Assembly (NCBI GenBank): GCA_963831155.1
Contig: CAWHOY010000007.1
Span: forward strand, 68,800-132,799
Source of the DNA: an uncultured Acidimicrobiaceae bacterium
Lineage (GTDB): Bacteria; Actinomycetota; Acidimicrobiia; Acidimicrobiales; Bog-793
Direction: 5' to 3'
Length of the DNA: 64,000 bases
The notes under the pieces are model-generated. The model had not been told where the DNA came from, made no database searches, and was given only the letters and a program-made list of their open reading frames with translations. Positions 38,898 through 48,336 of the stretch are shown here, piece by piece. The translations under genes and the position numbers were made by a program. The number at the start of each line of letters is the position of its first letter. The stretch's first letter is position 1.

Positions 38898-39263
38898 CGC
38901 CCCTACGGACGGGGCTTGGGTGCAGCAGACCTCGCACGGTCGGAGGCGCGCAAGCGCGTCGTCACCCCGACCATGTCACCCACTGTCCCCGAATTCAGAT
39001 GGATTTCCGATTGGGGCATCGCCCGGAAGTGCCGTACTGCGTCACACTCCCGGCGACGCTCCTATCAGTTGTCAAGCCCTGTGAGTCTTCGGGAGTGGAA
39101 ACAGCGGGCAGAACAATGAAGAGCCACTCCGTGTCGGAGGGCAAGCTCTTATCAAGCCACGCGTTTCGAAGAAGTGTGTGCCGGATCGTGGATCGGCGAG
39201 TCGCCGGAAAGTCAACCCGTGTGGGCGACAGTTAGGTGATGAGCCAGATCCACGGTCGCGGGC

Positions 39264-40310
39264 TCAGCCGCGAGGTAAGTGGCGATACACCTCGCGGGCT
39301 ACGTAGCGCTTCAAGATGCGGATGACCTCGGGCTTCGTTCGTCCTTCTTTCACGCGCCGCTCGAAGTAGGCAGTCGTCTCTGGGTCGTGGGCGATGCGCA
39401 CCATGACGATGCGCCACAGCGCGCTGTTCGCTTGACGATCACCACCGCTGTCGAGTCGAAAACGACCGGTGCTCTTTCCCGATGACGCTGGGATCGGCGA
39501 CACTCCGCACAAGTGTGCGAAGGCGGCTTCTGAATGGAGGCGCTCGGGATTGTCGCCGGCGGTCACCAATAGCGCGGCGGCGGTGTCGGGGCCGACTCCG
39601 AACAAAGCGAGCAACTCAGGAGCGGTGACTGCAAGAAGCGAGTTGATCTTCGCGTCGAGATCGGTGAGCTCTCTTTCGAGCGCTTGGATCCGACGGGCCA
39701 ACGAGGACACGGCGGCCTTCGTCGCCGCGGTGACCGGATCACTCGACTGCGCGGGGCGGAGCTTCGCTCCTTCTTTGACCAAGGCGGAGACGGTGAGGCC
39801 CTTCAGGCGACGATGGAGCACGTCGGGAGCAGTGACGACCAGGTGACGCACTTGGACGACGGCTTTGACCCGAGCCTGTCGGGCGGAGCGCTTGGCGACG
39901 AGGAGGACCCGGATCGCCTCGACTGCGCCGTCTTTTGTCTTGGCGACACTCTTTGCTCGGCCATTGAGCGCTGATCGCGCGGCTTCCACTGCATCGAGGG
40001 GATCGGACTTGCCCGACCGACGCCGTTCGGCTCGGTTCGGCCGGTCGACCTCGATGACATCGACGCCGTGACGGTGAAGAAAGCGCGCCAGCCCGGCTCG
40101 ATAAGAACCGGTTCCTTCGACACCGACTTTCCCCACCGCACCGAAGCTCTCGAGCCAGGAGAGCAAGGACTTGTAGCCGGCCGGGTTGACTTCGAACGAC
40201 TTCGTGCCGATGAGACCGCCGAGTGGATCAAGTGCGGCAGCGACGTGCACGTCGAGGTGGGTGTCGACACCACCGGTCACTCGACGCGTATCTAGCATTG
40301 TCATCGCCAT
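39264..40310 (-). CDS. IS110-family DEDD transposase/recombinase, copy A
   Basis: 348 aa. VTGGVDTHLDVHVAAALD..., VGVEGTGSY and the C-terminal SGG...RQANSALW...RYVAREVY region fit the family. Confidence 0.9.
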   Translation of the reverse strand: MAMTMLDTRRVTGGVDTHLDVHVAAALDPLGGLIGTKSFEVNPAGYKSLLSWLESFGAVGKVGVEGTGSYRAGLARFLHRHGVDVIEVDRPNRAERRRSGKSDPLDAVEAARSALNGRAKSVAKTKDGAVEAIRVLLVAKRSARQARVKAVVQVRHLVVTAPDVLHRRLKGLTVSALVKEGAKLRPAQSSDPVTAATKAAVSSLARRIQALERELTDLDAKINSLLAVTAPELLALFGVGPDTAAALLVTAGDNPERLHSEAAFAHLCGVSPIPASSGKSTGRFRLDSGGDRQANSALWRIVMVRIAHDPETTAYFERRVKEGRTKPEVIRILKRYVAREVYRHLPRG

Positions 40311-40571
40311 CCCTTCCTTTCTTCAAGCGGGATTGAGGGGTGGCACGGCCGTCCCGGATCGGAGTGACGGGTGGTCCGCCTTGTTGCTGCAAGACGGGCC
40401 AATCACCCTTGCTTCGGAACGGGACGTGCCGTTTTCAATGTGCGGCCGAAGGAGCTCAACCGACGACGACCGAGGTCGTCATCACTTCAAGTCAGGCTGA
40501 ACTCCTAGCGCTCCCGAAACTATTGAGAACCAACGAACACGCGGTGGACCCTCTGGGGCATTGTCATTGTT
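40311..40571 (-). ncRNA. candidate bridge RNA (IS110 left-end non-coding region), copy A
   Basis: The conserved structured region upstream of the recombinase has the hairpin CCGTCTTG-CAGCAA-CAAGGCGG (40377-40398). Only its loop differs from copy B. Confidence 0.35.
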
Positions 40572-40680
40572 CTGTGACACCGTCGCCTAAGTGGGCTGCG
40601 CATTATGGGGCAGCCGCTCGCCACGACGACCGCGCGGATTTGGCTCACCAGAACTTGCGGCCGTGGCGAATCGGACGGAA

Positions 40681-41280
40681 CTACATCTCGGAGGCGGGGA
40701 AGATCATCGCCGCGAGGCGCTCCACATCCTCGGGTGCGAGCCGGTTTGGCTGACCTTTTAGCCACTTCGTGATCTCACGTCTCTTCACCACTGCCACTCC
40801 GTCAGGCTGAGCTTTGATGACAATGCGATCACGGTCAGCGATCACGACAATCACTGGTGTGACTTCGAACTGGACACTCGATCCGGCGAGCCGCCTCGTC
40901 ACTTCCCGCTTTTCCCACTGCGCTTTGCGCAGATAGTCGGTCGGTTTCCCGTTCACATAGAAAGCATGCTCCGTCACCCACACTCGGCCAGACAGGTTCT
41001 TCGCGTTCACGGAGAAGACGCCTCCCGGGCCGATGACGAGGTGATCCACGTTGTGATCTTTCTTATTGAGAGGAATATCGGGGATCACTCGCCAAGAATC
41101 CGGCAGATGCGCGAGCTGCTCGTCGACCAACTTCTCGCCCTTGGCGCCTTGGCTCCAAGCTCGCTCGGTCGTGTGCTCTCCCAGGACCCGGCCGAGAAAC
41201 GAGCGAAATGGGGCCGCCCTTCTCGCCCCGCGAGCCATTCGCCGCGCGCTGTCACCGGCCGAAGTCGGGACCTCACTCAT
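40681..41280 (-). CDS. NERD (nuclease-related domain) protein
   Basis: 199 aa. GEKLVDEQLAHLPDSWRVIPDIPL...NVDHLVIGPGGVFSVNAKN fits NERD. Confidence 0.7.
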   Translation of the reverse strand: MSEVPTSAGDSARRMARGARRAAPFRSFLGRVLGEHTTERAWSQGAKGEKLVDEQLAHLPDSWRVIPDIPLNKKDHNVDHLVIGPGGVFSVNAKNLSGRVWVTEHAFYVNGKPTDYLRKAQWEKREVTRRLAGSSVQFEVTPVIVVIADRDRIVIKAQPDGVAVVKRREITKWLKGQPNRLAPEDVERLAAMIFPASEM

Positions 41281-41601
41281 TCCGTCTGTCTACAGGTTTT
41301 CGGCGGTTTGGCGATGAGCGCTCGTAGGATCCCGAGGCGAAGGGGCCTCTCGGAGGTGGCGGTTAATGCAGGAGCAGGAGGCATCGTCGGCCAATCAGCC
41401 CTATATGCAACTTGCCTCCTATCGGCATTGCGTCGATCGCATTCGCGGCGCTTGGCCCGCGTACTCCACACGACGCCGTCAACGGTTGCAGCAGGGTCTG
41501 TTCGATGCCCCGGTCGAAAAGATCGCCGAGAATATCTTGGAGGATCTCTTCACCACCGTCCTTGACTGGTCGCTCGACTTTCGCAAAGCGAGCAAAAGTG
41601 A

Positions 41602-41889
41602 TCACTCGCCAAAGATCAAGAGTCGGGAGTCGGACGACCGTTGCCTGATCGTGAGCGCTTCGCGGTACTCGATTGAGCCGTACCAAGCCCGCGCAGACTC
41701 TCGATTCGGAAACGAAATGAGAATGGTGATTCCGCCGGGCTGCCAGTCGCCCTCCATCACTTCGACATCCCGGCTAGCGGCGACCATCTCACCTTTGTGG
41801 GCCGCAAGGCTTACTCCTACCAGCTCGACATATCTGTTACGCCCCTCCTCGTTCGTCCAAGTGACGTCTGCTAGCACGTATCCGCTCAT
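41602..41889 (-). CDS. DUF1330-family protein
   Basis: 95 aa. MSGYVLADVTW...Y...EGDW...ILISFPNRESARAWYGSIEYREALTIRQRSS fits the family. Confidence 0.8.
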   Translation of the reverse strand: MSGYVLADVTWTNEEGRNRYVELVGVSLAAHKGEMVAASRDVEVMEGDWQPGGITILISFPNRESARAWYGSIEYREALTIRQRSSDSRLLIFGE

Positions 41890-42270
41890 AGGACCCTCCG
41901 AGTCGTCGATGGGAGCGAGGATTCGCAGCCTCGCTCAGCGTCTCACCGACGAGATGAATATCAGGTGTTGTGCAACCGTGGCACTCCGAGCGGAGGCGGT
42001 CGCCGTGCGACGCACCCGACGATTAGGGTCACCTCGTCGACGACGTCGATGCTCGATTCCATGGGCGCAGGGGTTCGCGTCGGAGGAGGGACGCGCTCGT
42101 TCTGCTACCGAGCACTGGCGGCTGGATGTATCGAAGGGCGGAAGGTGACTCCGATCGGCACCTCGAGGCCACCCCTGACGCTCGTTGAGATGCGCGTTAT
42201 GAGCGACCTCGGGGCTGGTGCTGTCGCCTTTCCTCGCCCGTTTGGGTGTCGGTACCGACGCGAGGCCCTC

Positions 42271-42855
42271 TCAGAGCTTGGTCACTGCGGGACAGCTCCA
42301 GCTTCCTGTCATCGTGCTAGCGCTCGAGTGCGCGCTTGTGGTGCCGTCTGACCAAGTCATCTTGAACTTGAACGAACCGGTCTTCCCCCCAATGGTGATC
42401 GTCCCGGAGGTCGCTGAGAAGTAGTTCGAGACGATCACCTTTGTGGGGGAGTACGGAGAGAGCAAGTCCGCCTTCGACTCGGGGATACTGCTTTGGGTGA
42501 ACGTCCCGTTGCCCTTCGCCCCGGCGATGAAGCTCCACTCGCCGTAGCTGAGCCCTGACAGCTTGCCGAAGTAGTACAACTCGACAACGTCTCCCTTCTT
42601 ATTGGGCAGGTTGTCGAAGAGCTCCTTGCAGTCCTTCGCTGGGTTCTCGAGCTCCAAGGTGCCCGAGTACTTGCCGGACACGACGATGGTGTTCGTCGCG
42701 ACGTGTGGCGCGAGCGCCGCCGACCTCGCAGCAAGAGCGGTGTGCTCGGCAACAACGCCGCCGGGGGCGACAACGAGCGCGGCACCAAGCAGCAACGACA
42801 TCGGCCTGCCACCCGGCCAGCTCGGCAGCGTCATTCGGCGCAGGATCTGTCGCAT
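42271..42855 (-). CDS. hypothetical secreted protein
   Basis: 194 aa with a signal-like N-terminus (MSLLLGAALVVAPGGVVA) and no recognised domain. Confidence 0.5.
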   Translation of the reverse strand: MRQILRRMTLPSWPGGRPMSLLLGAALVVAPGGVVAEHTALAARSAALAPHVATNTIVVSGKYSGTLELENPAKDCKELFDNLPNKKGDVVELYYFGKLSGLSYGEWSFIAGAKGNGTFTQSSIPESKADLLSPYSPTKVIVSNYFSATSGTITIGGKTGSFKFKMTWSDGTTSAHSSASTMTGSWSCPAVTKL

Positions 42856-43108
42856 CTCGTCCTCCGCTCGTCGATGCCGACGCCTGCCTCTCCTACCTCC
42901 AGCTTCTCCATCTGACCTGGGAACCCCGGAAGGACCCGTACGTCCGGTGGGAACGGCGAGGCGACTTCGGCTACCGCATCATCGCTCAGGGTCCCGAGCC
43001 TGTTCCTCCTCGTCCTCGGCTGCCTCCTCCGAAGTTGCGCGGGGTCAAGACTGCAAACGGGATAGCCACGCAGCGTGCCGGCCGGCGGTCAGGCCCCGGG
43101 CTCGATGC

Positions 43109-43669
43109 TTAGGCGGCGATGTCGAGCGTGAGCAGGCGCTCGCCGACTGGCACGTGCCCCGCCGCGGCACCAAAGGTCTTCGCCGCGCCGCCCAGCGCGA
43201 CGCCATAGCCGGTGGTTCCCTTGTTGTCGGCGACGCCGACGAGCTGCCCGCCGTTCAGCGCTTCGCCATAGGTCCAGCTGAACGCGGTCGAGCCGACGGA
43301 CGGAAGGGAAGTGAAGATCAGCTTCACGCCCTTCGGGGACTCAGCGGCAATCCTCGCCTCCGCCTTGGCCCGGGTGGCGAGCTGAGAAGCCGGGATACCG
43401 GGCTGCTTCGTGATGACGACCTCGTCGATCGGATGCGCGACAGAGGCCGCCACCTTGCCGAAATAGATGCACTCGAGGGCGTTGCTTTTGACGACGGCCT
43501 CAAAGAGCGAGACCGTTGTCCCGACGATCGAGGAGACCTTTGTGGCCGGGATGTGTGCACAAAAGGTCGAGACAGTGGAGCGCGGTCCCGTAGCACTGGG
43601 CTGCAGAGCCTCCGCCGTGGCCGGGAATATGGCCAGAGACACCGCGCAGCTGCCCGCCGCGAGCAGCAT
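43109..43669 (-). CDS. hypothetical secreted protein
   Basis: It starts at MLLAAGSCAVSLAIFPATAEA (signal-like). An upstream GTG is an alternative start. The 311-aa track ORF is probably over-extended. Confidence 0.45.
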   Translation of the reverse strand: MLLAAGSCAVSLAIFPATAEALQPSATGPRSTVSTFCAHIPATKVSSIVGTTVSLFEAVVKSNALECIYFGKVAASVAHPIDEVVITKQPGIPASQLATRAKAEARIAAESPKGVKLIFTSLPSVGSTAFSWTYGEALNGGQLVGVADNKGTTGYGVALGGAAKTFGAAAGHVPVGERLLTLDIAA

Positions 43670-44208
43670 GCCCGCGGACCGCCAAGCCCAGGCCCTGCAC
43701 CGGATCGAGATCGTCGTGGGGGTGTGCGACGCGCCAGCACTGAAGGTACTCGTCACCTCTGCTCCTTGGTTGATGTTGATCGGGGTGTGCCCGCAAGTGG
43801 CGCCCCGGTCCTCGAATGATGTCACTCCGTGTGACCGGTGTCGGAGGGCCGACTTCCACAATCTCCGACTGGGCTTGAGCCTTGGGGAGGCGCCTAACCG
43901 ACGAAGCCCCTTCGGCGACGAAATTGTTGGCCAGGACCGTCGGACGCGTCGCTCTGACCAGCCGGTCGCGGGAACCATCGTTGTTCTTACGGCATTCCGT
44001 ATGGGGCGAATAAGGGAGAAATGCGCGTTAGGGAATGCTCTCAAGGACGAAGCGTAAACGGATGACTATTGCGCGGTGCCGTTGCACCGTAACGCTGCCC
44101 AATACAACTCGTCGACTAAGCGATCCCTCCGGTACAGATCGGCCACTACCAGGGGTCGTCAAGTAGCCTTCGCGGTCCAACGCCTCACCGGAGCCCTAGA
44201 AGATCCAA

Positions 44209-45162
44209 ATGAAGAAGTCCGGAATACTGTTGGGATTGATCGTGTATGTGTTGGGCTTGGCCGTACCCGCGGGATCATCAGTCAATCTCAAGTCTGATCT
44301 GCTGACTCTCTCCCAGCTTCCGAAGGGCTGGGTGACAGCCTCGGCTTCGAGCGCTGAGTTACCGGGCTGCAAAGCGACCGCACTTCCGGCGAAGCCCACG
44401 ACGCAGGCGAACGCCACGTTCAACTACCGAGCCCTGAAAGGGTTTCCCCAACTCGTCGAGGTGCTGGCGGCCTATACGAACATCGATAAGGGGTTCAACT
44501 CGCTCACGTCTGGACTGAACGGTTGCAAGAATGTCACCGGGAACAAGAACGGAAAGTCATTCACCACCACGGTTTCAAAGATGGCTTTCAGCAGCTACGG
44601 GGACCAATCCGCCGCCTTTCACGCCAGCATCAAGGCCTCGGGCTTGCTTGTTGCCATCGACATCTTGGTCGTGCGCAAGGGGAAGGTGTTGCTCGAACTT
44701 CAAGAGGGCAATAACAACTCCAGCGTTAGCCTGAGTACATTCCACGGCTTCGCAACGGCCGCGGTTCGCAAGCTGACATCAACCACGACGGTCTCGTCGA
44801 CAAAGGCGTCTCAGCAGTTCCTGGCGACCGCCACGGCCTCCAAGGCCGCGTACCTCACGTGGAGGGCCGCGATCAAAGGCAAGACCACGGTCAGCCAGGT
44901 AATCGGTCCTTGTGACACTTACGCGGCCGCGTTGACGAACTTCGACAACGCGATATTGCGCATCGCCGTCACTGGCAAGACGGAAACCGACATTCAGACC
45001 TTGGTCGCCGATGACCGCGTCGTCATCAAGGATCTGGAAGCTGTGAAAACAGAAACCGCGGCCGAAATCAGGAAGGATGCCGCTCAACTCATAGCCACTG
45101 GCGAGACGGCGATAAGCGCCGGCGACGTTGTTCGGAGCGACCTCGGGTTGCCGCCGAGTTGA
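44209..45162 (+). CDS. hypothetical secreted protein, N-terminal half possibly PknH-like sensor-domain fold
   Basis: 317 aa with a clear signal peptide (MKKSGILLGLIVYVLGLAVPAGSS) and conserved Cys pairs. It has visibly lower GC than the flanks. The domain guess is tentative. Confidence 0.55.
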   Translation: MKKSGILLGLIVYVLGLAVPAGSSVNLKSDLLTLSQLPKGWVTASASSAELPGCKATALPAKPTTQANATFNYRALKGFPQLVEVLAAYTNIDKGFNSLTSGLNGCKNVTGNKNGKSFTTTVSKMAFSSYGDQSAAFHASIKASGLLVAIDILVVRKGKVLLELQEGNNNSSVSLSTFHGFATAAVRKLTSTTTVSSTKASQQFLATATASKAAYLTWRAAIKGKTTVSQVIGPCDTYAAALTNFDNAILRIAVTGKTETDIQTLVADDRVVIKDLEAVKTETAAEIRKDAAQLIATGETAISAGDVVRSDLGLPPS

Positions 45163-45355
45163 GTTTGGCGAGCCCGACGCGATCAGGCAACCAACGAAGT
45201 TGATCGGGACACGGTGGGCAGTAGCGACGCCCACTGTCACACGCGAAGTGCCATAACTGGTCGATCTGATCGACACCTCCGGCACGTTCTCGGACTGGAC
45301 TTGCCCCGCTTTCGTGGACACCTAATTTCGGCTGAAGCCGAAGGGAGGGTGTCCG

Positions 45356-45778
45356 GTGGCGAGACCGTCGAAGTATCCAGAGGAGTTCCGTCAGGAAGCG
45401 GTGCAGATGGCTTTGGCGAGCGACGGATCGCGAGCCTCTGTGGCTCGGCGACTCGGGGTCAACGAGACCACGCTTCGCAACTGGATCCAGGATCACCTCG
45501 CTGAGGAAGCAAGGGCAGCCGATCCCTTGGCCGTGAGTCCCTCTGAGTTCGAGGAGCTTCGTCGACTCCGTCTTGAGGTGAAAGAACTCAAGATGGAGAA
45601 GGAGATCCTCAGAGATGCAGCCGCGTATTTCGCGCGGGAGACGATCCGCTCTGCCGCTTCCGGTTCGTCTCCGAGTACCGACACCGCTACGGAGTCAAGC
45701 GGCTCTGCCGGGTCCTCTCTGTCTCACGCTCGGGCTACTACGCCCAAACGCTCCGGCCGCCGTCAAAGAGGTCGCTGA
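45356..45778 (+). CDS. IS3-family transposase OrfA (reading frame runs on unusually far)
   Basis: MARPSKYPEEFRQEAVQMAL...ETTLRNWIQ...ELRRLRLEVKELKMEKEILRDAAAYFARET. GTG start. Beyond about 45650 the frame is probably non-functional read-on. Confidence 0.7.
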   Translation: MARPSKYPEEFRQEAVQMALASDGSRASVARRLGVNETTLRNWIQDHLAEEARAADPLAVSPSEFEELRRLRLEVKELKMEKEILRDAAAYFARETIRSAASGSSPSTDTATESSGSAGSSLSHARATTPKRSGRRQRGR

Positions 45779-46512
45779 CAGACGCCCTCCTAGAAGAGGC
45801 GATCTGCGAGATCTACCTCGATTCACGCAGCACCTACGGGGCCCCAAGAATCCACGCCAAGCTCGCTCAACGAGGTGTTCGCTGCGGGAGGAAGCGAGTC
45901 GCCCGCCTCATGAAAAAACACCGCCTGGTCGGCGTGCATGCGAGGAAGCGCTGGAGAAGGTCCAAGCCCGGAGAGGCACGAGCTCCGGACCTGTGCCGGC
46001 GCGACTTCAACCCGTCTCGGCCCGACGAGATCTGGGCCGCAGACGTCACCCAGTTCCGGACCGGCCAAGGCTGGCTCCATCTCGCCACCGTTCTCGACCT
46101 GTGGTCGCGCCGGGTGATCGGCTGGTCGATGGGTCCTTCGGCCAGCACCGAGCTCGTCACAGACGCCCTCGTCATGGCTGCCGAGCGCCGGCGCCGCGAC
46201 CAGAGGGTCGTCCATCACTCAGACAGAGGATCTGCCTATACGTCGCTCGCTTTCTCAGAAAGAGTCACAGAACTCGGACTCGACCAGTCGTTTGGAAAGA
46301 CCGGCGATTGCTATGACAACGCGGCAGTCGAATCCTTCTTTGCGACTCTGAAGCGAGAGCTCGCGTGGATTCACGCGACCAAACGTTGGAATACCCGAAC
46401 GGAACTGCGCACCGCGCTCTTCGAGTTCATCGAGGGCTTTTACAACCCGCAACGCATCCAACTGAGGCTTGGATACCTGAGCCCAATAGAGTTCGAGGAG
46501 AGAGTTGCTTAA
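45577..46512 (+). CDS. IS3-family transposase OrfB (rve/DDE), -1 frame
   Basis: The frame is open from 45577. It reads ...RFRFVSEYRHRYGVKRLCRVLSVSRSGYY...IWAADVTQF...HSDRGSAYTS...DCYDNAAVESFFATLKRE. Confidence 0.8.
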   Translation, partial: GERTQDGEGDPQRCSRVFRAGDDPLCRFRFVSEYRHRYGVKRLCRVLSVSRSGYYAQTLRPPSKRSLTDALLEEAICEIYLDSRSTYGAPRIHAKLAQRGVRCGRKRVARLMKKHRLVGVHARKRWRRSKPGEARAPDLCRRDFNPSRPDEIWAADVTQFRTGQGWLHLATVLDLWSRRVIGWSMGPSASTELVTDALVMAAERRRRDQRVVHHSDRGSAYTSLAFSERVTELGLDQSFGKTGDCYDNAAVESFFATLKRELAWIHATKRWNTRTELRTALFEFIEGFYNPQRIQLRLGYLSPIEFEERVA

Positions 46513-46598
46513 TAACCGCGTGTCCGCGGAACCGGGTCAACTCCAGACGCCGACAGTCACGGATAATCGGCTTTCTGCAGTGCACTCAAGTAGCCCAT

Positions 46599-46852
46599 AA
46601 CAATGACAATGCCCTTGAGGGTCCACCGCGTCGTTGTTGGTTCTCAATAGCTTCGGGAGCGCTGGAGCGTTTAGCAGTGATGACGACCTCGGCCATCGTC
46701 GGCTGAGCTTCCGGACCCGCACATTGAAAAACGGCACGTCCCGTTCCGAAGCAAGGGTGATTGGCCCGTCTTGAGCGAACAAGGCGGACCACCCGTCACT
46801 CCGATCCGGGACGGCCGTGCCACCCCTCAATCCCGCTTAAAGAAAGGAAGGG
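46599..46852 (+). ncRNA. candidate bridge RNA (IS110 left-end non-coding region), copy B
   Basis: Hairpin CCGTCTTG-AGCGAA-CAAGGCGG lies at 46766-46787. There is long-range pairing between GGCACGTCCCG (46733-46743) and CGGGACGGCCGTGCC (46807-21). A variable block at 46664-46720 differs from copy A. Confidence 0.35.
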
Positions 46853-47899
46853 ATGGCGATGACAATGCTAGAAGCGCCTCGCGTGACCGGTGGTGTCGAC
46901 ACCCACCTCGATGTGCACGTCGCTGCGGCACTCGACCCAGTCGGTGGCCTGCTCGACACGAAGTCGTTCGAGGTCAACCCCGCCGGCTACAAGTCGTTGC
47001 TCGCATGGCTCGAGAGCTTCGGCGAGCTCGGAAAGGTTGGTGTCGAAGGAACCGGTTCTTATGGAGCCGGACTGGCACGGTTTCTTCGCCGACAAGGTGT
47101 CAGTGTCATCGAGGTCGACCGGCCGAACCGAGCTGAACGGCGCCGATCCGGAAAGTCCGATCCCCTCGACGCAGTGGAAGCTGCCCGATCAGCGCTCAGT
47201 GGCCGAGCAAAGAGCCTCCCGAAGTCAAAAGACGGTGCGGTCGAGGCGATCCGCGTCCTCGGTGTCGCCAAGCGCTCGGCACGCCAGGCGCGGGCGAAGG
47301 CTGTCGTCCAGATGCGCCACCTCGTCATCACGGCTCCTGACGAGCTCCGTTCCAGGATGAAGGGCCTGAGTGTCCCCGCCTTGGTCAAAGAGGGAGCAAA
47401 GCTCCGCCCCTCGCGATCGGCCGATCCGGTCACCACCGCGACAAAGGCAGCCATCTCCTCGTTGGCGCACCGGATCCAGGCGCTCGAGTCCGAGCTCGCC
47501 GAACTCGACGAGATGATCACCGCTCATCTCGTTGCGACCGCGCCCGATCTGCTCGCCATGTTCGGAGTCGGTCCCCACACGGCCGCCGCTTTATTGGTGT
47601 GCGCCGGCGACAACCCCGAACGGCTCCACACAGAAGCTTCCTTCGCGCATCTTTGCGGGGTGGCACCGATCCCGGCGTCGTCGGGGAAGACCACGGGTCG
47701 TTTTCGACTCGACACAGGTGGTGATCGTCAAGCGAACAGCGCGCTGTGGCGCATTGTCATGGTGCGCATCGCCCACGACCCAAAGACGACGGCCTACTTC
47801 GAACGCCGCCTGAAAGAGGGTCGAACCAAGCGCGAGGTGATCCGCATCTTGAAGCGCTACGTCGCCCGCGAGGTCTATCGCCATCTACCTCGCGGCTGA
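46853..47899 (+). CDS. IS110-family DEDD transposase/recombinase, copy B
   Basis: 348 aa, colinear with copy A. Many substitutions are scattered throughout, so the two are clearly diverged (I estimate very roughly 80-90 % identity by eye, not computed). Confidence 0.9.
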   Translation: MAMTMLEAPRVTGGVDTHLDVHVAAALDPVGGLLDTKSFEVNPAGYKSLLAWLESFGELGKVGVEGTGSYGAGLARFLRRQGVSVIEVDRPNRAERRRSGKSDPLDAVEAARSALSGRAKSLPKSKDGAVEAIRVLGVAKRSARQARAKAVVQMRHLVITAPDELRSRMKGLSVPALVKEGAKLRPSRSADPVTTATKAAISSLAHRIQALESELAELDEMITAHLVATAPDLLAMFGVGPHTAAALLVCAGDNPERLHTEASFAHLCGVAPIPASSGKTTGRFRLDTGGDRQANSALWRIVMVRIAHDPKTTAYFERRLKEGRTKREVIRILKRYVAREVYRHLPRG

Positions 47900-48262
47900 G
47901 TCCGTGGCCGTGGGTCTGGCTCTGCCCATAACTGTCGCCCGAACGGGCTGACTTTCGCGCGACCCGCCGACCCACGGCCCGGTATTCACTTCTTCGAAAC
48001 GCGTGGCCTCATAAGAGCTTGCCCTCCGACTCGGAGTGGCTCTTCATTGTTCTGCCCGCTCCACTAAAGAAGATCACCAACGGGGCTTGACAACTGATAG
48101 GAGCGTCGCGCGCGAGCATGCGCAACTGATGCGTGGCAGAAGTGCCGATCGGTGGCAGTTCCTCCCGGAGGGGCTGTGCGGAGTTAGACACCTGTCTGAG
48201 CGCTGTGCTCTCCGTCTCAGCGGTGCCGCTGTTCCTATTACCCCAGTTCAGTAGCCATTTAG

Positions 48263-48336
48263 TGGGCGCTGACGGACTCGAACCGCCGACCTGCTCGTTG
48301 TAAGCGAGCTGCTCTAACCACCTGAGCTAAGCGCCC
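48263..48336 (-). tRNA. tRNA-Val (anticodon TAC)
   Basis: The reverse complement folds as a cloverleaf: acceptor GGGCGCT/AGCGCCC, D arm GCTC..GAGC, anticodon arm GCTCG-CTTACAA-CGAGC, T arm GGCGG-TTCGAGT-CCGTC. It is 74 nt with no encoded CCA. Confidence 0.9.

What the first reader, a model, noticed from the sequence alone, without database searches (positions are those of the whole stretch)
46599..46852. IS110 left ends look like bridge-RNA genes: conserved stems, with copy-specific differences confined to a loop and one block
IS110-family recombinases are known to be guided by a structured bridge RNA encoded in the non-coding end of the element. Both copies here (46599-46852 on the plus strand and 40311-40571 on the minus strand) have about 255-260 nt upstream of the recombinase. 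The 3' half is almost identical between copies. It contains a hairpin whose stems are conserved while the 6-nt loop differs. Copy B has CCGTCTTG-AGCGAA-CAAGGCGG and copy A has CCGTCTTG-CAGCAA-CAAGGCGG. It also has a long-range helix, GGCACGTCCCG pairing with CGGGACGGCCGTGCC. Most other differences cluster in one block (B 46664-46720, A 40443-40508, including a 7-nt length difference). Loop-restricted variation on a conserved scaffold is what re-targeted guide loops would look like. The two copies are also inserted in different flanking sequences.
Basis: partly seen in the sequence, partly recalled or inferred. Interest (0 to 1): 0.7.

Follow-up and report, generated by a model that had tools for sequence, protein, structure and literature searches.

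The report
IS110 left ends encode bridge-type RNA

Summary
Two diverged IS110-family elements (B 46602-48107 +, A 40568-39055 -) each have about 250 nt before an intact DEDD/Ser recombinase gene. The 3' half is identical apart from a 6-nt hairpin loop, and most other differences sit in one block.

160 related loci support a structured RNA on the recombinase strand:
- 91% of cells paired, against 52% or less when partners are slid.
- 19 pairs changed on both sides.
- Conserved G-U pairs.
- A TTGACA -35 box in the right end that meets a GAYAMT -10 box in the left end only in the excised circle, as in IS621.

Empty sites fix the insertion point inside a REP-like palindrome (..TGCCCCnnnAC^GCCGGGA..).

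The guide-loop reading is not supported:
- The variable loop caps the distal stem P4, varies freely across relatives that share one target, and is not complementary to either copy's flanks or ends.
- The variable block is an expansion segment that short relatives lack entirely. Copy B has a deletion in it.

I could not assign the real guide segments with confidence. Rfam has no bridge-RNA model, so its silence says nothing.

Verdict: a new member of a known kind.

The parts
46602..48107 (+). Copy B, IS110-family element proper (1506 bp): AATGACAATG...GATAGGAGCGTC
   Evidence: Two-copy alignment. Boundaries refined with empty sites and 58 insertions.
39055..40568 (-). Copy A, the same element family (1514 bp). 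CDS 84% nt identical to B, 294 of 349 translated positions identical.
46617..46852 (+). Copy B predicted non-coding RNA. It runs from the inferred start (first base of H1) to the recombinase start codon. The structured part ends at 46821.
   Evidence: Start inferred from the -10 position and IS621 geometry. Structure.
40311..40553 (-). Copy A predicted non-coding RNA (structured part ends at 40342).
48087..48092 (+). -35 box TTGACA in the right end of B, 15 nt from the element end (A: 39075-39070, - strand).
   Evidence: Found in nearly every relative whose right end was recovered. Only two matches in the window against 0.04 expected.
46605..46610 (+). -10-like GACAAT in the left end of B (A: 40565-40560). 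It lies 18 nt from the -35 only when the right end is joined to the left end.
   Evidence: Conserved as GA(C/T)A(A/C)T. Same layout as IS621.
46617..46645 (+). H1 hairpin: GAGGGUC / GGUUCUC around a 15-nt loop CACCGCGUCGUUGUU (A: 40553-40525). Loop 3' half plus the first two stem bases (B 46633-46640 GUUGUUGG; A 40537-40530 UUCGUUGG) is a candidate right-donor guide.
   Evidence: Stem changes on both sides in relatives, e.g. GAGGGUC/GACCCUC and AGGAUCC/GGGUCCU. Complementary to TC|AATGAC at 8/8 (B, 3 wobbles) and 7/8 (A).
46664..46719 (+). Expansion segment, the 'variable block' (A: 40506-40443). It holds a covarying hairpin GACGAC/GUCGUC. Copy B lacks the conserved CUGACUU piece.
   Evidence: Absent in L008 and L015. 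X17 contigs skip 46657-46728.
46722..46727 (+). J2 segment CAUUGA between the expansion segment and P1 (A: 40440-40435). Alternative right-donor guide candidate.
   Evidence: Antisense to core plus first 4 nt of the left end (TC|AATG), 6/6 in both copies. Wobble or one mismatch in other clades.
46733..46821 (+). 3' domain: P1 GGCACG:CGUGCC, P2 CCGU(U)CC:GGGACGG, internal loop A, P3 GGGUGAU-GG:CC-GUCACUC, bulge, P4 (A: 40430-40342).
   Evidence: RNAalifold on two sets of 48 sequences. Both-sided changes in P1 (A-U 40, G-C 4), P2 (U-A 28, C-G 20) and P4.
46766..46787 (+). P4 hairpin with apical loop 46774-46779 AGCGAA (A: 40397-40376, loop 40389-40384 CAGCAA).
   Evidence: Stem covaries, e.g. 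GTCTTG/CAAGGC, GGGTTG/CAACCC, GAGCTG/CAGCTC. Loop hypervariable and unrelated to flanks.
46820..46856 (+). Tail helix: CCACCCCU (46820-46827) can pair with AGGGAUGG (46849-46856), which is the Shine-Dalgarno sequence plus the start codon.
   Evidence: Predicted in all four sub-family consensus folds. Inference only.
46853..47899 (+). Copy B recombinase gene (348 aa). Copy A: 40310-39264 (-).
   Evidence: Pfam DEDD_Tnp_IS110 and Transposase_20. IS621 D11, E60, D102 and S241 conserved, D105 is Glu.
46590..46601 (+). Copy B left target GTAGCCCATA + AC. Right target is 48108-48120 GCGCGCGAGCATG, which is atypical.
39041..39054 (-). Copy A right target GCCGGGAGTGTGAC. Left target is 40582-40569 GGTGTCACAGA + AC. 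Together they form a REP-like hairpin, stem GTCACA/TGTGAC.
   Evidence: Another insertion with the same 10 + 9 nt but other outer flanks appears in run X23.

Best explanation
Each element is an IS110-group insertion sequence whose left end encodes a bridge-type guide RNA.

Proposed mechanism (inferred):
1. Excision joins the right end to the left end.
2. That junction brings TTGACA (right end) 18 nt from GACAAT (left end), creating a promoter.
3. The promoter fires about 15 nt into the left end, at the foot of hairpin H1.
4. The transcript is H1, an optional expansion domain, a single-stranded linker and a highly conserved 3' domain (P1-P2-loop A-P3-P4). It continues into the recombinase mRNA, whose ribosome-binding site can be masked by the RNA's tail.
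5. The DEDD/Ser recombinase uses the RNA to pair the circle junction GGAGCG-TC|AATGAC with a REP-like palindrome ..TGCCCCnnnAC^GCCGGGA.. and exchanges strands just 3' of an NC dinucleotide.

Differences between the two window copies are drift, not re-targeting. They lie in the apical loop of the distal hairpin P4, in the dispensable expansion domain (where copy B has a deletion), and at three positions of the H1 loop. Neither copy's differences track its target.

Shown: structure, conservation pattern, promoter halves, insertion point, intact catalytic residues.
Inferred: transcription, RNA-recombinase binding, which segments are guides.
For: - Recombinase family and catalytic residues.
- Structure: 91.4% of cells paired against 52% or less when slid. 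19 pairs changed on both sides. 0 of 500 shuffles reached the observed values. Both-sided changes in P1, P2 and P4 in a wider set.
- Conserved G-U pairs, e.g. 45-47 of 48 in P3, fit only the sense strand.
- The 3' domain has no substitution outside the loop between copies whose third codon positions differ by 30%.
- The -35 and -10 halves are conserved across the loci whose ends were recovered, with the spacing seen in IS621.
- Empty sites such as L007:22 CTGCCCCCGAAC^GCCGGGACGGTGGGGCA fix the insertion point.
- The left junction keeps the target's dinucleotide (AC, TC or CC). The right junction always has the donor's TC. This is what top-strand exchange 3' of the core gives in IS621.
- The loop is not a guide. 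The block is dispensable.
- Candidate donor guide in the H1 loop has compensatory changes: left-end position 2 A:U to G:C, and position 6 C:G to T:A. L089 has a perfect match while its sisters L088 and L090, which have a different left-end start, do not.
Against: - There is no direct evidence of the transcript, its ends or its binding to the recombinase. Metatranscriptome contigs of relatives only show RNA spanning 46775-46911.
- Target- and donor-binding segments could not be assigned with confidence. The H1-loop match fails in the largest clade (left end ATTGAT). The J1 match does not track the right-end G/A variant.
- Wobble-tolerant matches are plentiful because both the donor junction and the target are near-palindromes.
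- No published bridge-RNA model was available. Rfam has none.
- Copy B's right flank does not fit the family target.
Confidence: 0.7

Rival explanations
1. One reading: the P4 loop and the variable block are programmable guide loops, re-targeted in each copy to its own insertion site.
For: - Variation is concentrated there on an otherwise identical scaffold.
- The two copies sit in different flanks, and copy B's right flank is atypical.
- Pairs of insertions with the same loop share 13.7 of 20 flank positions, against 12.6 for different loops (p = 0.0125 in a permutation that ignores relatedness).
Against: - The loop's best matches to its own target and donor are at chance level.
- The common loop classes occupy the same consensus site, and one loop class is found with many flank variants.
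- L040 has copy A's loop but copy B's left flank.
- It is an apical loop of 6-7 nt with only 3-5 variable letters. Known guides lie in internal loops and include the core.
- The block is missing in relatives with the same target.
- The small excess is what clade structure alone would give.
Confidence: 0.06
2. The conserved structure is only a cis-acting 5' leader of the recombinase mRNA (translational control or stability), not a guide RNA.
For: - The tail after P1 can pair with the Shine-Dalgarno sequence and start codon in all sub-families.
- Metatranscriptome contigs run from the 3' domain into the CDS.
- No guide segment could be proven.
Against: - Masking a ribosome-binding site needs about 8 nt, not a 90-nt domain kept invariant while the CDS diverged 16%.
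- The IS110 family to which the recombinase belongs is known to depend on such an RNA.
- The promoter exists only in the circle, as for IS621.
- The two roles are not exclusive.
Confidence: 0.1
3. The complementarity between the H1 loop and the first bases of the left end is an RNA-RNA fold-back. It would form only in read-through transcripts from outside the integrated element and disable them. It would not be a donor guide.
For: - The match covers bases upstream of the inferred start site, so it could form only in read-through RNA.
- Its register relative to H1 differs between clades, and it is missing in the ATTGAT clade.
Against: - The register next to the core dinucleotide, and inclusion of the core, are what a right-donor guide needs.
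- No experimental precedent for this was checked here.
Confidence: 0.1
4. The conservation acts at the DNA level (recombinase binding sites or sub-terminal repeats), not through an RNA.
For: TGAYA-like motifs recur in both ends (TTGACAACTGATAGG and AATGACAATG).
Against: Both-sided compensatory changes in helices up to 90 nt apart, and near-invariant G-U pairs that would be A-C mismatches on the other strand.
Confidence: 0.03

Closest known systems
IS621 / IS110-group bridge RNA (Durrant et al. 2024, PMC11208160; Hiraizumi et al. 2024, PMC11208158)
   Same: - The RNA gene lies in the left end on the recombinase strand, ending just before the start codon.
- The -35 is in the right end and the -10 at left-end positions about 3-9, so the promoter exists only in the circle.
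- DEDD plus Ser catalytic residues.
- The target is a repeated extragenic palindrome.
- The junction pattern fits top-strand exchange 3' of a dinucleotide core.
- A less conserved 5' part and a highly conserved 3' part.
   Different: - No detectable sequence similarity. The recombinases are 27% identical.
- The layout is a 5' hairpin with a 15-nt apical loop, a three-way junction with an optional expansion domain, and one long 3' stem with internal loops. IS621 has a 5' stem-loop plus two internal-loop domains.
- The core is NC (donor TC, target mostly AC) rather than CT.
- Guide segments are not identified here.
- The right end is 208 nt, which is long for the group.
ISPpu10 bridge RNA system (bioRxiv 10.64898/2026.03.19.712850; abstract only read)
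   Same: IS110-family element said to need both RNA complementarity and a hairpin in the target DNA. Here most insertions lie in the loop of a REP-like hairpin, 4-5 nt after its 5' stem.
   Different: A hairpin requirement is not tested here. Copy B's site has only the left half of the repeat. The RNA architectures were not compared.
IS1111-group seekRNA (Siddiquee et al. 2024, PMC11187229)
   Same: Same recombinase superfamily and the same idea of an RNA from the non-coding region matching both target strands.
   Different: In IS1111 the non-coding region lies downstream of the gene and there are 7-17-bp sub-terminal inverted repeats. Here the RNA is upstream, and only a 4-bp GTCA..TGAC symmetry spans the circle junction.

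Membership tests
IS110-group bridge RNA | Encoded in the non-coding left end, upstream of and on the same strand as a DEDD/Ser (RuvC-like + Tnp) recombinase | tested here: met
   251 and 258 nt before the CDS in both copies. Pfam PF01548 and PF02371. D11, E60, D102 and S241 conserved, D105 is Glu.
IS110-group bridge RNA | Promoter reconstituted at the circle junction (-35 in the right end, -10 in the left end) | tested here: met
   Sequence level only. TTGACA is 15 nt from the right-end tip and GACAAT sits at left-end positions 4-9, giving an 18-nt spacer. Both are conserved in relatives. Same geometry as IS621. Activity not tested.
IS110-group bridge RNA | Conserved secondary structure supported by covariation | tested here: met
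IS110-group bridge RNA | Two loops whose strands pair with left-target and left-donor bottom strands and right-target and right-donor top strands, each including the core | tested here: inconclusive
   Donor candidates exist: H1 loop, J2, J1, P3 3' strand. Target candidates exist: P2 5' strand with loop A, P2 3' strand. None holds in all clades, and near-palindromic sites give many wobble matches.
IS110-group bridge RNA | Same dinucleotide core on both sides of the inserted element | tested here: inconclusive
   Both junctions carry NC. The left keeps the target's AC, TC or CC and the right always has TC. Only the C is shared in most insertions.
IS110-group bridge RNA | Match to published bridge-RNA covariance models | not testable with these tools
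   Rfam 15 gives no hit for the window's left ends. It also gives none for the validated IS621 bridge RNA, so it holds no such family.
IS110-group bridge RNA | Discrete RNA of about 150-200 nt that binds the recombinase and is required for recombination | not testable with these tools
   Only assembled metatranscriptome contigs of relatives were available, without strand or ends.
IS1111-group seekRNA | Non-coding RNA region downstream of the recombinase gene and 7-17-bp sub-terminal inverted repeats | tested here: not met
   The structured conserved region is upstream. The ends share only GTCA/TGAC around the junction.
REP-targeting, hairpin-gated IS110 elements (ISPpu10-like) | Insertion next to or within a hairpin-forming extragenic repeat | tested here: met
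   Met for the family and for copy A. Copy B has only the left half-site. Any dependence on the hairpin is untested.

The most novel reading that the evidence does not exclude
This Acidimicrobiia clade may use a bridge RNA laid out differently from IS621. Donor recognition would sit in an apical hairpin loop or three-way junction at the 5' end. The target-recognition module would be a basal helix whose two strands (GUCCCGUUC... and ...CCGGGACGG) copy the two halves of the REP-like target around the insertion point. The RNA might then invade one DNA strand on both sides of the crossover rather than opposite strands.
Probability: 0.12. Interest if true: 0.55.

Novelty: new member of a known kind. 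Interest (0 to 1): 0.3.

Why it matters
Bridge RNAs are programmable recombination guides, so each divergent architecture widens the toolbox and the rules. Here the value is modest. The work documents a well-populated soil actinobacterial clade (160 loci) with a clear consensus structure, a precisely mapped REP-like target, a tolerant first core position and a possible coupling of guide RNA and recombinase translation. It also gives a practical warning. Sequence variation on a conserved scaffold is not enough to call a guide: apical loops of distal stems and expansion segments vary for free.

Tried and rejected
- **Rfam, gathering and E <= 10:** no hit. The control with the IS621 bridge RNA shows Rfam holds no such family, so this result carries no weight.
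- **Boundaries from the two copies alone (AACAATG...GTCGC):** rejected once empty sites showed that AAC is target and GC is right flank.
- **Core candidates CG, CC, GT and CA:** each fails on sets of identical elements in different sites.
- **P4 loop as left-target guide (NNN + AAC against the target):** rejected, for example CUAG loops sit at CCG sites.
- **Mutual information between flanks or ends and RNA columns:** dominated by clade structure and uninformative.
- **J1 GGGAGC(G/A) as left-donor guide:** the G/A does not follow the right-end GCGTC/GCATC variant.
- **H1-loop GC(G/A)UC as left-donor guide:** L001 fits but L082 and L083 do not.
- **UGCCCCAGA at left-end positions 9-17 as left-target guide:** lies mostly upstream of the inferred start and is absent in other clades.
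- **Search for empty sites or circle junctions:** Logan contigs showed none across the window copies. None was found in the sequences held apart from a 7-nt remnant in L028.

Full report
**What is there**

The window holds two diverged copies of one IS110-family element in inverted orientation. By two-copy alignment alone, copy B (+) spans 46599-48109 and copy A (-) spans 40571-39053. Each encodes a 348-aa protein with the Pfam domains DEDD_Tnp_IS110 and Transposase_20. Aligned with the IS621 recombinase (27% identity), the catalytic D11, E60, D102 and S241 are conserved and D105 is Glu. No other copy of the conserved RNA motif or of the right-end motif occurs in the 64 kb.

**The observation**

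- The hairpin CCGTCTTG-loop-CAAGGCGG lies at B 46766-46787 and A 40397-40376, with loops AGCGAA and CAGCAA.
- From the linker before P1 to the end of P1 (B 46720-46821) the copies agree at 97 of 102 columns. The only differences are the four loop letters and a 1-nt indel.
- The CDS is 84% identical, and 70% at third codon positions.
- The block B 46664-46719 / A 40506-40443 is 61% identical with 8 gap columns.

If the roughly 96 non-loop positions of the 3' domain evolved like third codon positions, about 29 changes would be expected. None is seen. Four differences in six loop positions is compatible with neutral change (binomial p of about 0.07 at 30% divergence, my calculation).

Single-sequence folds give z = -2.6 for B and -3.9 for A. 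Logan contigs of a soil-metagenome run reproduce both junctions of copy A, and the left junction and the block of copy B, with 0-1 differences. These are not assembly artefacts.

**Relatives**

One scan of species-representative genomes and one of metagenomes gave 160 loci. They are 61-92% identical in protein. The genome-derived loci come almost all from Acidimicrobiaceae/Acidimicrobiales genomes assembled from metagenomes; the metagenome contigs carry no taxon label.

**True ends, target and core**

Uninterrupted copies of the target occur in the flanks of several loci. Examples are L007:22 CTGCCCCCGAAC^GCCGGGACGGTGGGGCA and L033:3783 TGCCCCCGAAC^GCCGGGTCGGTGGGACA. Compared with 58 insertions, they show three things.

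- The three bases before A(A/G/T)TGA belong to the target.
- The element ends at GGAGC(G)TC.
- The right flank starts GCCGG.

Copy B is therefore 46602-48107 and copy A is 40568-39055.

The target is a REP-like palindrome (stem TGCCCC/GGGGCA), hit 4-5 nt after its 5' stem.

- Copy A fits a variant of it: stem GTCACA/TGTGAC, site GTCACAGAAC^GCCGGGAGT. Another insertion in run X23 has the same 10 + 9 nt but different outer flanks.
- Copy B has a recognisable left half (TAGCCCATAAC, also seen in L040) but an atypical right flank (GCGCGCGAG). Several close relatives share an RCGCG-type right flank.

The left junction keeps the target's own dinucleotide (AC, TC or CC). The right junction always carries TC. 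This is the outcome expected if, as shown for IS621, top strands are cut and exchanged just 3' of the core. Here the core is NC, with a tolerated mismatch at its first base. That reading is my inference.

**Promoter**

TTGACA lies 15 nt from the right-end tip (B 48087-48092). It is found in nearly every relative whose right end was recovered. GA(C/T)A(A/C)T occupies left-end positions 4-9 (B 46605-46610). The two are 18 nt apart (17 in the GGAGC-TC clade) only when the ends are joined. The real IS621 locus has the same geometry, with TATTAT at left-end positions 3-8 and the RNA starting at position 15. This puts the likely start near 46617, the first base of hairpin H1. It is a sequence-level inference. 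No circle junction was found in the sequences held.

**Structure**

RNAalifold on 48 left ends, and again on 48 3' domains that include the deeper clades, gives the following.

- P1: GGCACG:CGUGCC, with one pair A-U 40 / G-C 4 / G-U 3.
- P2: CCGU(N)YC:GRACGG, with one pair U-A 28 / C-G 20.
- An internal loop A.
- P3: GGGUGAU-GG:CC-GUCRCUC, almost invariant and rich in G-U pairs.
- A small bulge.
- P4, with abundant both-sided changes.

I added three features by hand: H1 (GAGGGUC/GGUUCUC), the basal helices of the expansion domain, and its hairpin GACGAC/GUCGUC. The 60-pair structure then scores as follows.

- 91.4% of cells paired, against 30-52% with partners slid by 1-3 columns.
- 19 pairs changed on both sides, against 11.7 +/- 1.9 in shuffles.
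- 0 of 500 shuffles reach the observed values.

Near-invariant G-U pairs would be A-C mismatches on the opposite strand. The structure therefore belongs to an RNA made in the recombinase direction.

For the inner one, the comparative data favour CCGUUCC:GGGACGG over GUCCCG:CGGGAC, which would be mismatched in most relatives.

Sub-family consensus folds also pair the tail CCA(C/U)CCCU with AGGGAUG(G), the Shine-Dalgarno sequence plus the start codon.

**The two variable places**

1. The P4 loop is apical.
   - Across 58 insertions its middle 3-5 letters take at least 14 forms (CUAG, CAGC, CACG, CUACC and others). The stem covaries and the flanking G...AAC is fixed.
   - The common loop classes all sit at CCCC(G/A)(T/A)AC^GCCGG.
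   - Identical elements sit in different flanks.
   - L040 has copy A's loop with copy B's left flank.
   - In both window copies the longest match of the loop (plus 3 nt either side) to its own target or donor, sense or antisense, with or without wobble, is what shuffled loops give (p 0.11-1.0).
   - Same-loop pairs share slightly more flank positions, 13.7 against 12.6 of 20. The p of 0.0125 comes from a permutation that ignores relatedness, and clade structure alone would give this excess.
   - The simplest reading is that P4 is the distal stem of a binding module and its tip is unconstrained.
2. The block is an expansion domain.
   - It is absent in L008 and L015 (left ends 185-192 nt) and reduced to one hairpin in a mid-length group.
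   - All of these insert at the same site.
   - Contigs in run X17 skip 46657-46728.
   - Copy A has the family-typical form (helix GGAGUUCAGCC:GGUUGAGCUCC, the CUGACUU motif, hairpin GACGAC-CUCG-GUCGUC). Copy B has lost CUGACUU and part of the helix.

**Where are the guides?**

I could not settle this. Left guides have the sense of the top strand. Right guides are antisense to it. All four include the core. Handshake bases favour the exchanged partner.

Candidates for the donor (circle junction GGAGCG-TC|AATGAC):

- **H1 loop, last bases (B GUUGUUGG, A UUCGUUGG, L047 GUCGUUGG).** Antisense to TC|AATGAC.
  - In clades whose left end starts AGTGAC the same place reads GUCACUGG or GUCGCUGA. Position 2 therefore switches A:U to G:C.
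  - In the ATTGAT clade position 6 switches C:G to T:A.
  - L089, which has AGTGAC, carries a perfect UCACUG. Its sister elements L088 and L090, which have ATTGAT, carry UGACUG.
  - Against it: the ATTGAT clade as a whole pairs poorly, and the register shifts by 3 nt in some lineages.
- **J2 CAUUGA.** Antisense to TC|AATG at 6/6 in the window copies. It needs a wobble in AGTGAC elements and has one mismatch in ATTGAT elements.
- **J1 GGGAGCG.** It has the sense of the right-end AGGAGCG, but its last base does not follow the GCGTC/GCATC variant.
- **H1-loop GCGUC.** It has the sense of the last three right-end bases plus the core, and becomes GCAUC in L001 (right end GCATC). L082 and L083, with the same right end, keep GCGUC.

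Candidates for the target:

- The 3' part of the P2 5' strand plus loop A (GUCUCCGAGU, or GUUCCGAAGC in the window copies). This is a wobble-tolerant sense match to GCCCCCGA-AC that ends at the core.
- The P2 3' strand, CCGGGACGG, which is identical to the consensus right target.
- The P3 3' strand, CGUCGCUCC, which is antisense to GGAGCG-TC-G.

The donor junction (GTCA-N-TGAC) and the target (GTCCCC...GGGAC) are both near-palindromes and G+C rich. Such matches are therefore cheap. Mutual information is swamped by clade structure. The whole clade uses one repeat family, which leaves almost no target variation to covary with. The one clear shift is a deeper clade that inserts 3 nt further right, at ..GTTCGCC^GG.., and it did not resolve the matter.

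**Databases and transcription**

Rfam 15 has no hit in either left end. It also has none on the validated IS621 bridge RNA taken from an E. coli genome.

Two metatranscriptomes hold contigs of relatives covering 46775-46911. That is RNA spanning the 3' domain and the start of the CDS, with no strand or end information.

**Verdict**

The left ends are best explained as genes for a bridge-type RNA of an IS110-group element. Durrant et al. predicted such RNAs for 85.7% of IS110-group elements, so the kind is known. This is a divergent, well-populated Acidimicrobiia member. The specific idea that made the finding attractive, guide loops re-targeted between the two copies, is not supported. I give 0.7 to the overall explanation. 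Most of the remaining doubt concerns the missing proof of a trans-acting RNA and the unresolved guides.

Noticed in passing
46820-46827 with 46849-46856 (copy B); 40343-40336 with 40314-40307 (copy A): The tail after P1 (CCACCCCU) can pair with AGGGAUGG, the Shine-Dalgarno sequence plus the recombinase start codon. The pairing is predicted in all four sub-family consensus folds. It suggests translation is masked in the full-length transcript.
   Followed up: partly
40569-46601: The two IS110 copies are inverted and bracket a 6.0-kb segment. It contains a NERD-domain ORF (40681-41280, -), several ORFs without Pfam hits, and an IS3-type rve-domain ORF (45910-46512) that ends 90 nt before copy B. 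The segment could be inverted by recombination between the copies.
   Followed up: partly
48263-48336 (-): tRNA gene (Rfam 69 bits), with anticodon loop CUUACAA and so Val(UAC) by my reading. It lies 155 nt to the right of copy B.
   Followed up: no
L028:2734; L063 and L121/L122 right junctions; L023:362: In three lineages the right end plus TC is followed by the first 5-7 nt of the left end (AGTGAC..) before ordinary flank resumes. One otherwise empty REP site carries ATTG, the first 4 nt of that clade's left end, at the insertion point. These look like footprints of abortive or imprecise events.
   Followed up: no
L069-L076, L128, L129, L149, L156: A deeper clade (65-69% protein identity) keeps the same 3' RNA domain. 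It inserts 3 nt further right in the same REP-like repeat (..GTTCGCC^GGnnnnGGG) and has a different left-end start (AATGATGT..).
   Followed up: partly
copy B right flank 48108-48130; L001, L002, L040, L047, L082, L083: In the sub-group closest to the window copies the right flank is often RCGCG.. rather than GCCGGG, while the left half-site is kept. Right-target recognition seems loose or short in this sub-group.
   Followed up: partly
left junctions of L004-like loci against empty sites: 25 of 30 insertions of the ATTGAT clade have T before the core (GT-AC). None of about 15 empty sites has TAC. Unexplained: it could be site selection, or a base brought in by the element.
   Followed up: no
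38984-39030 and 40600-40625 (window): Further REP-like pieces lie near copy A. TGTCCCCGAATTC...GATTGGGGCA is to its right. CTGCCCCATAATGCGC is about 35 nt to its left, and the same 14-mer GCCCCATAATGCGC lies upstream of the element in L079.
   Followed up: no
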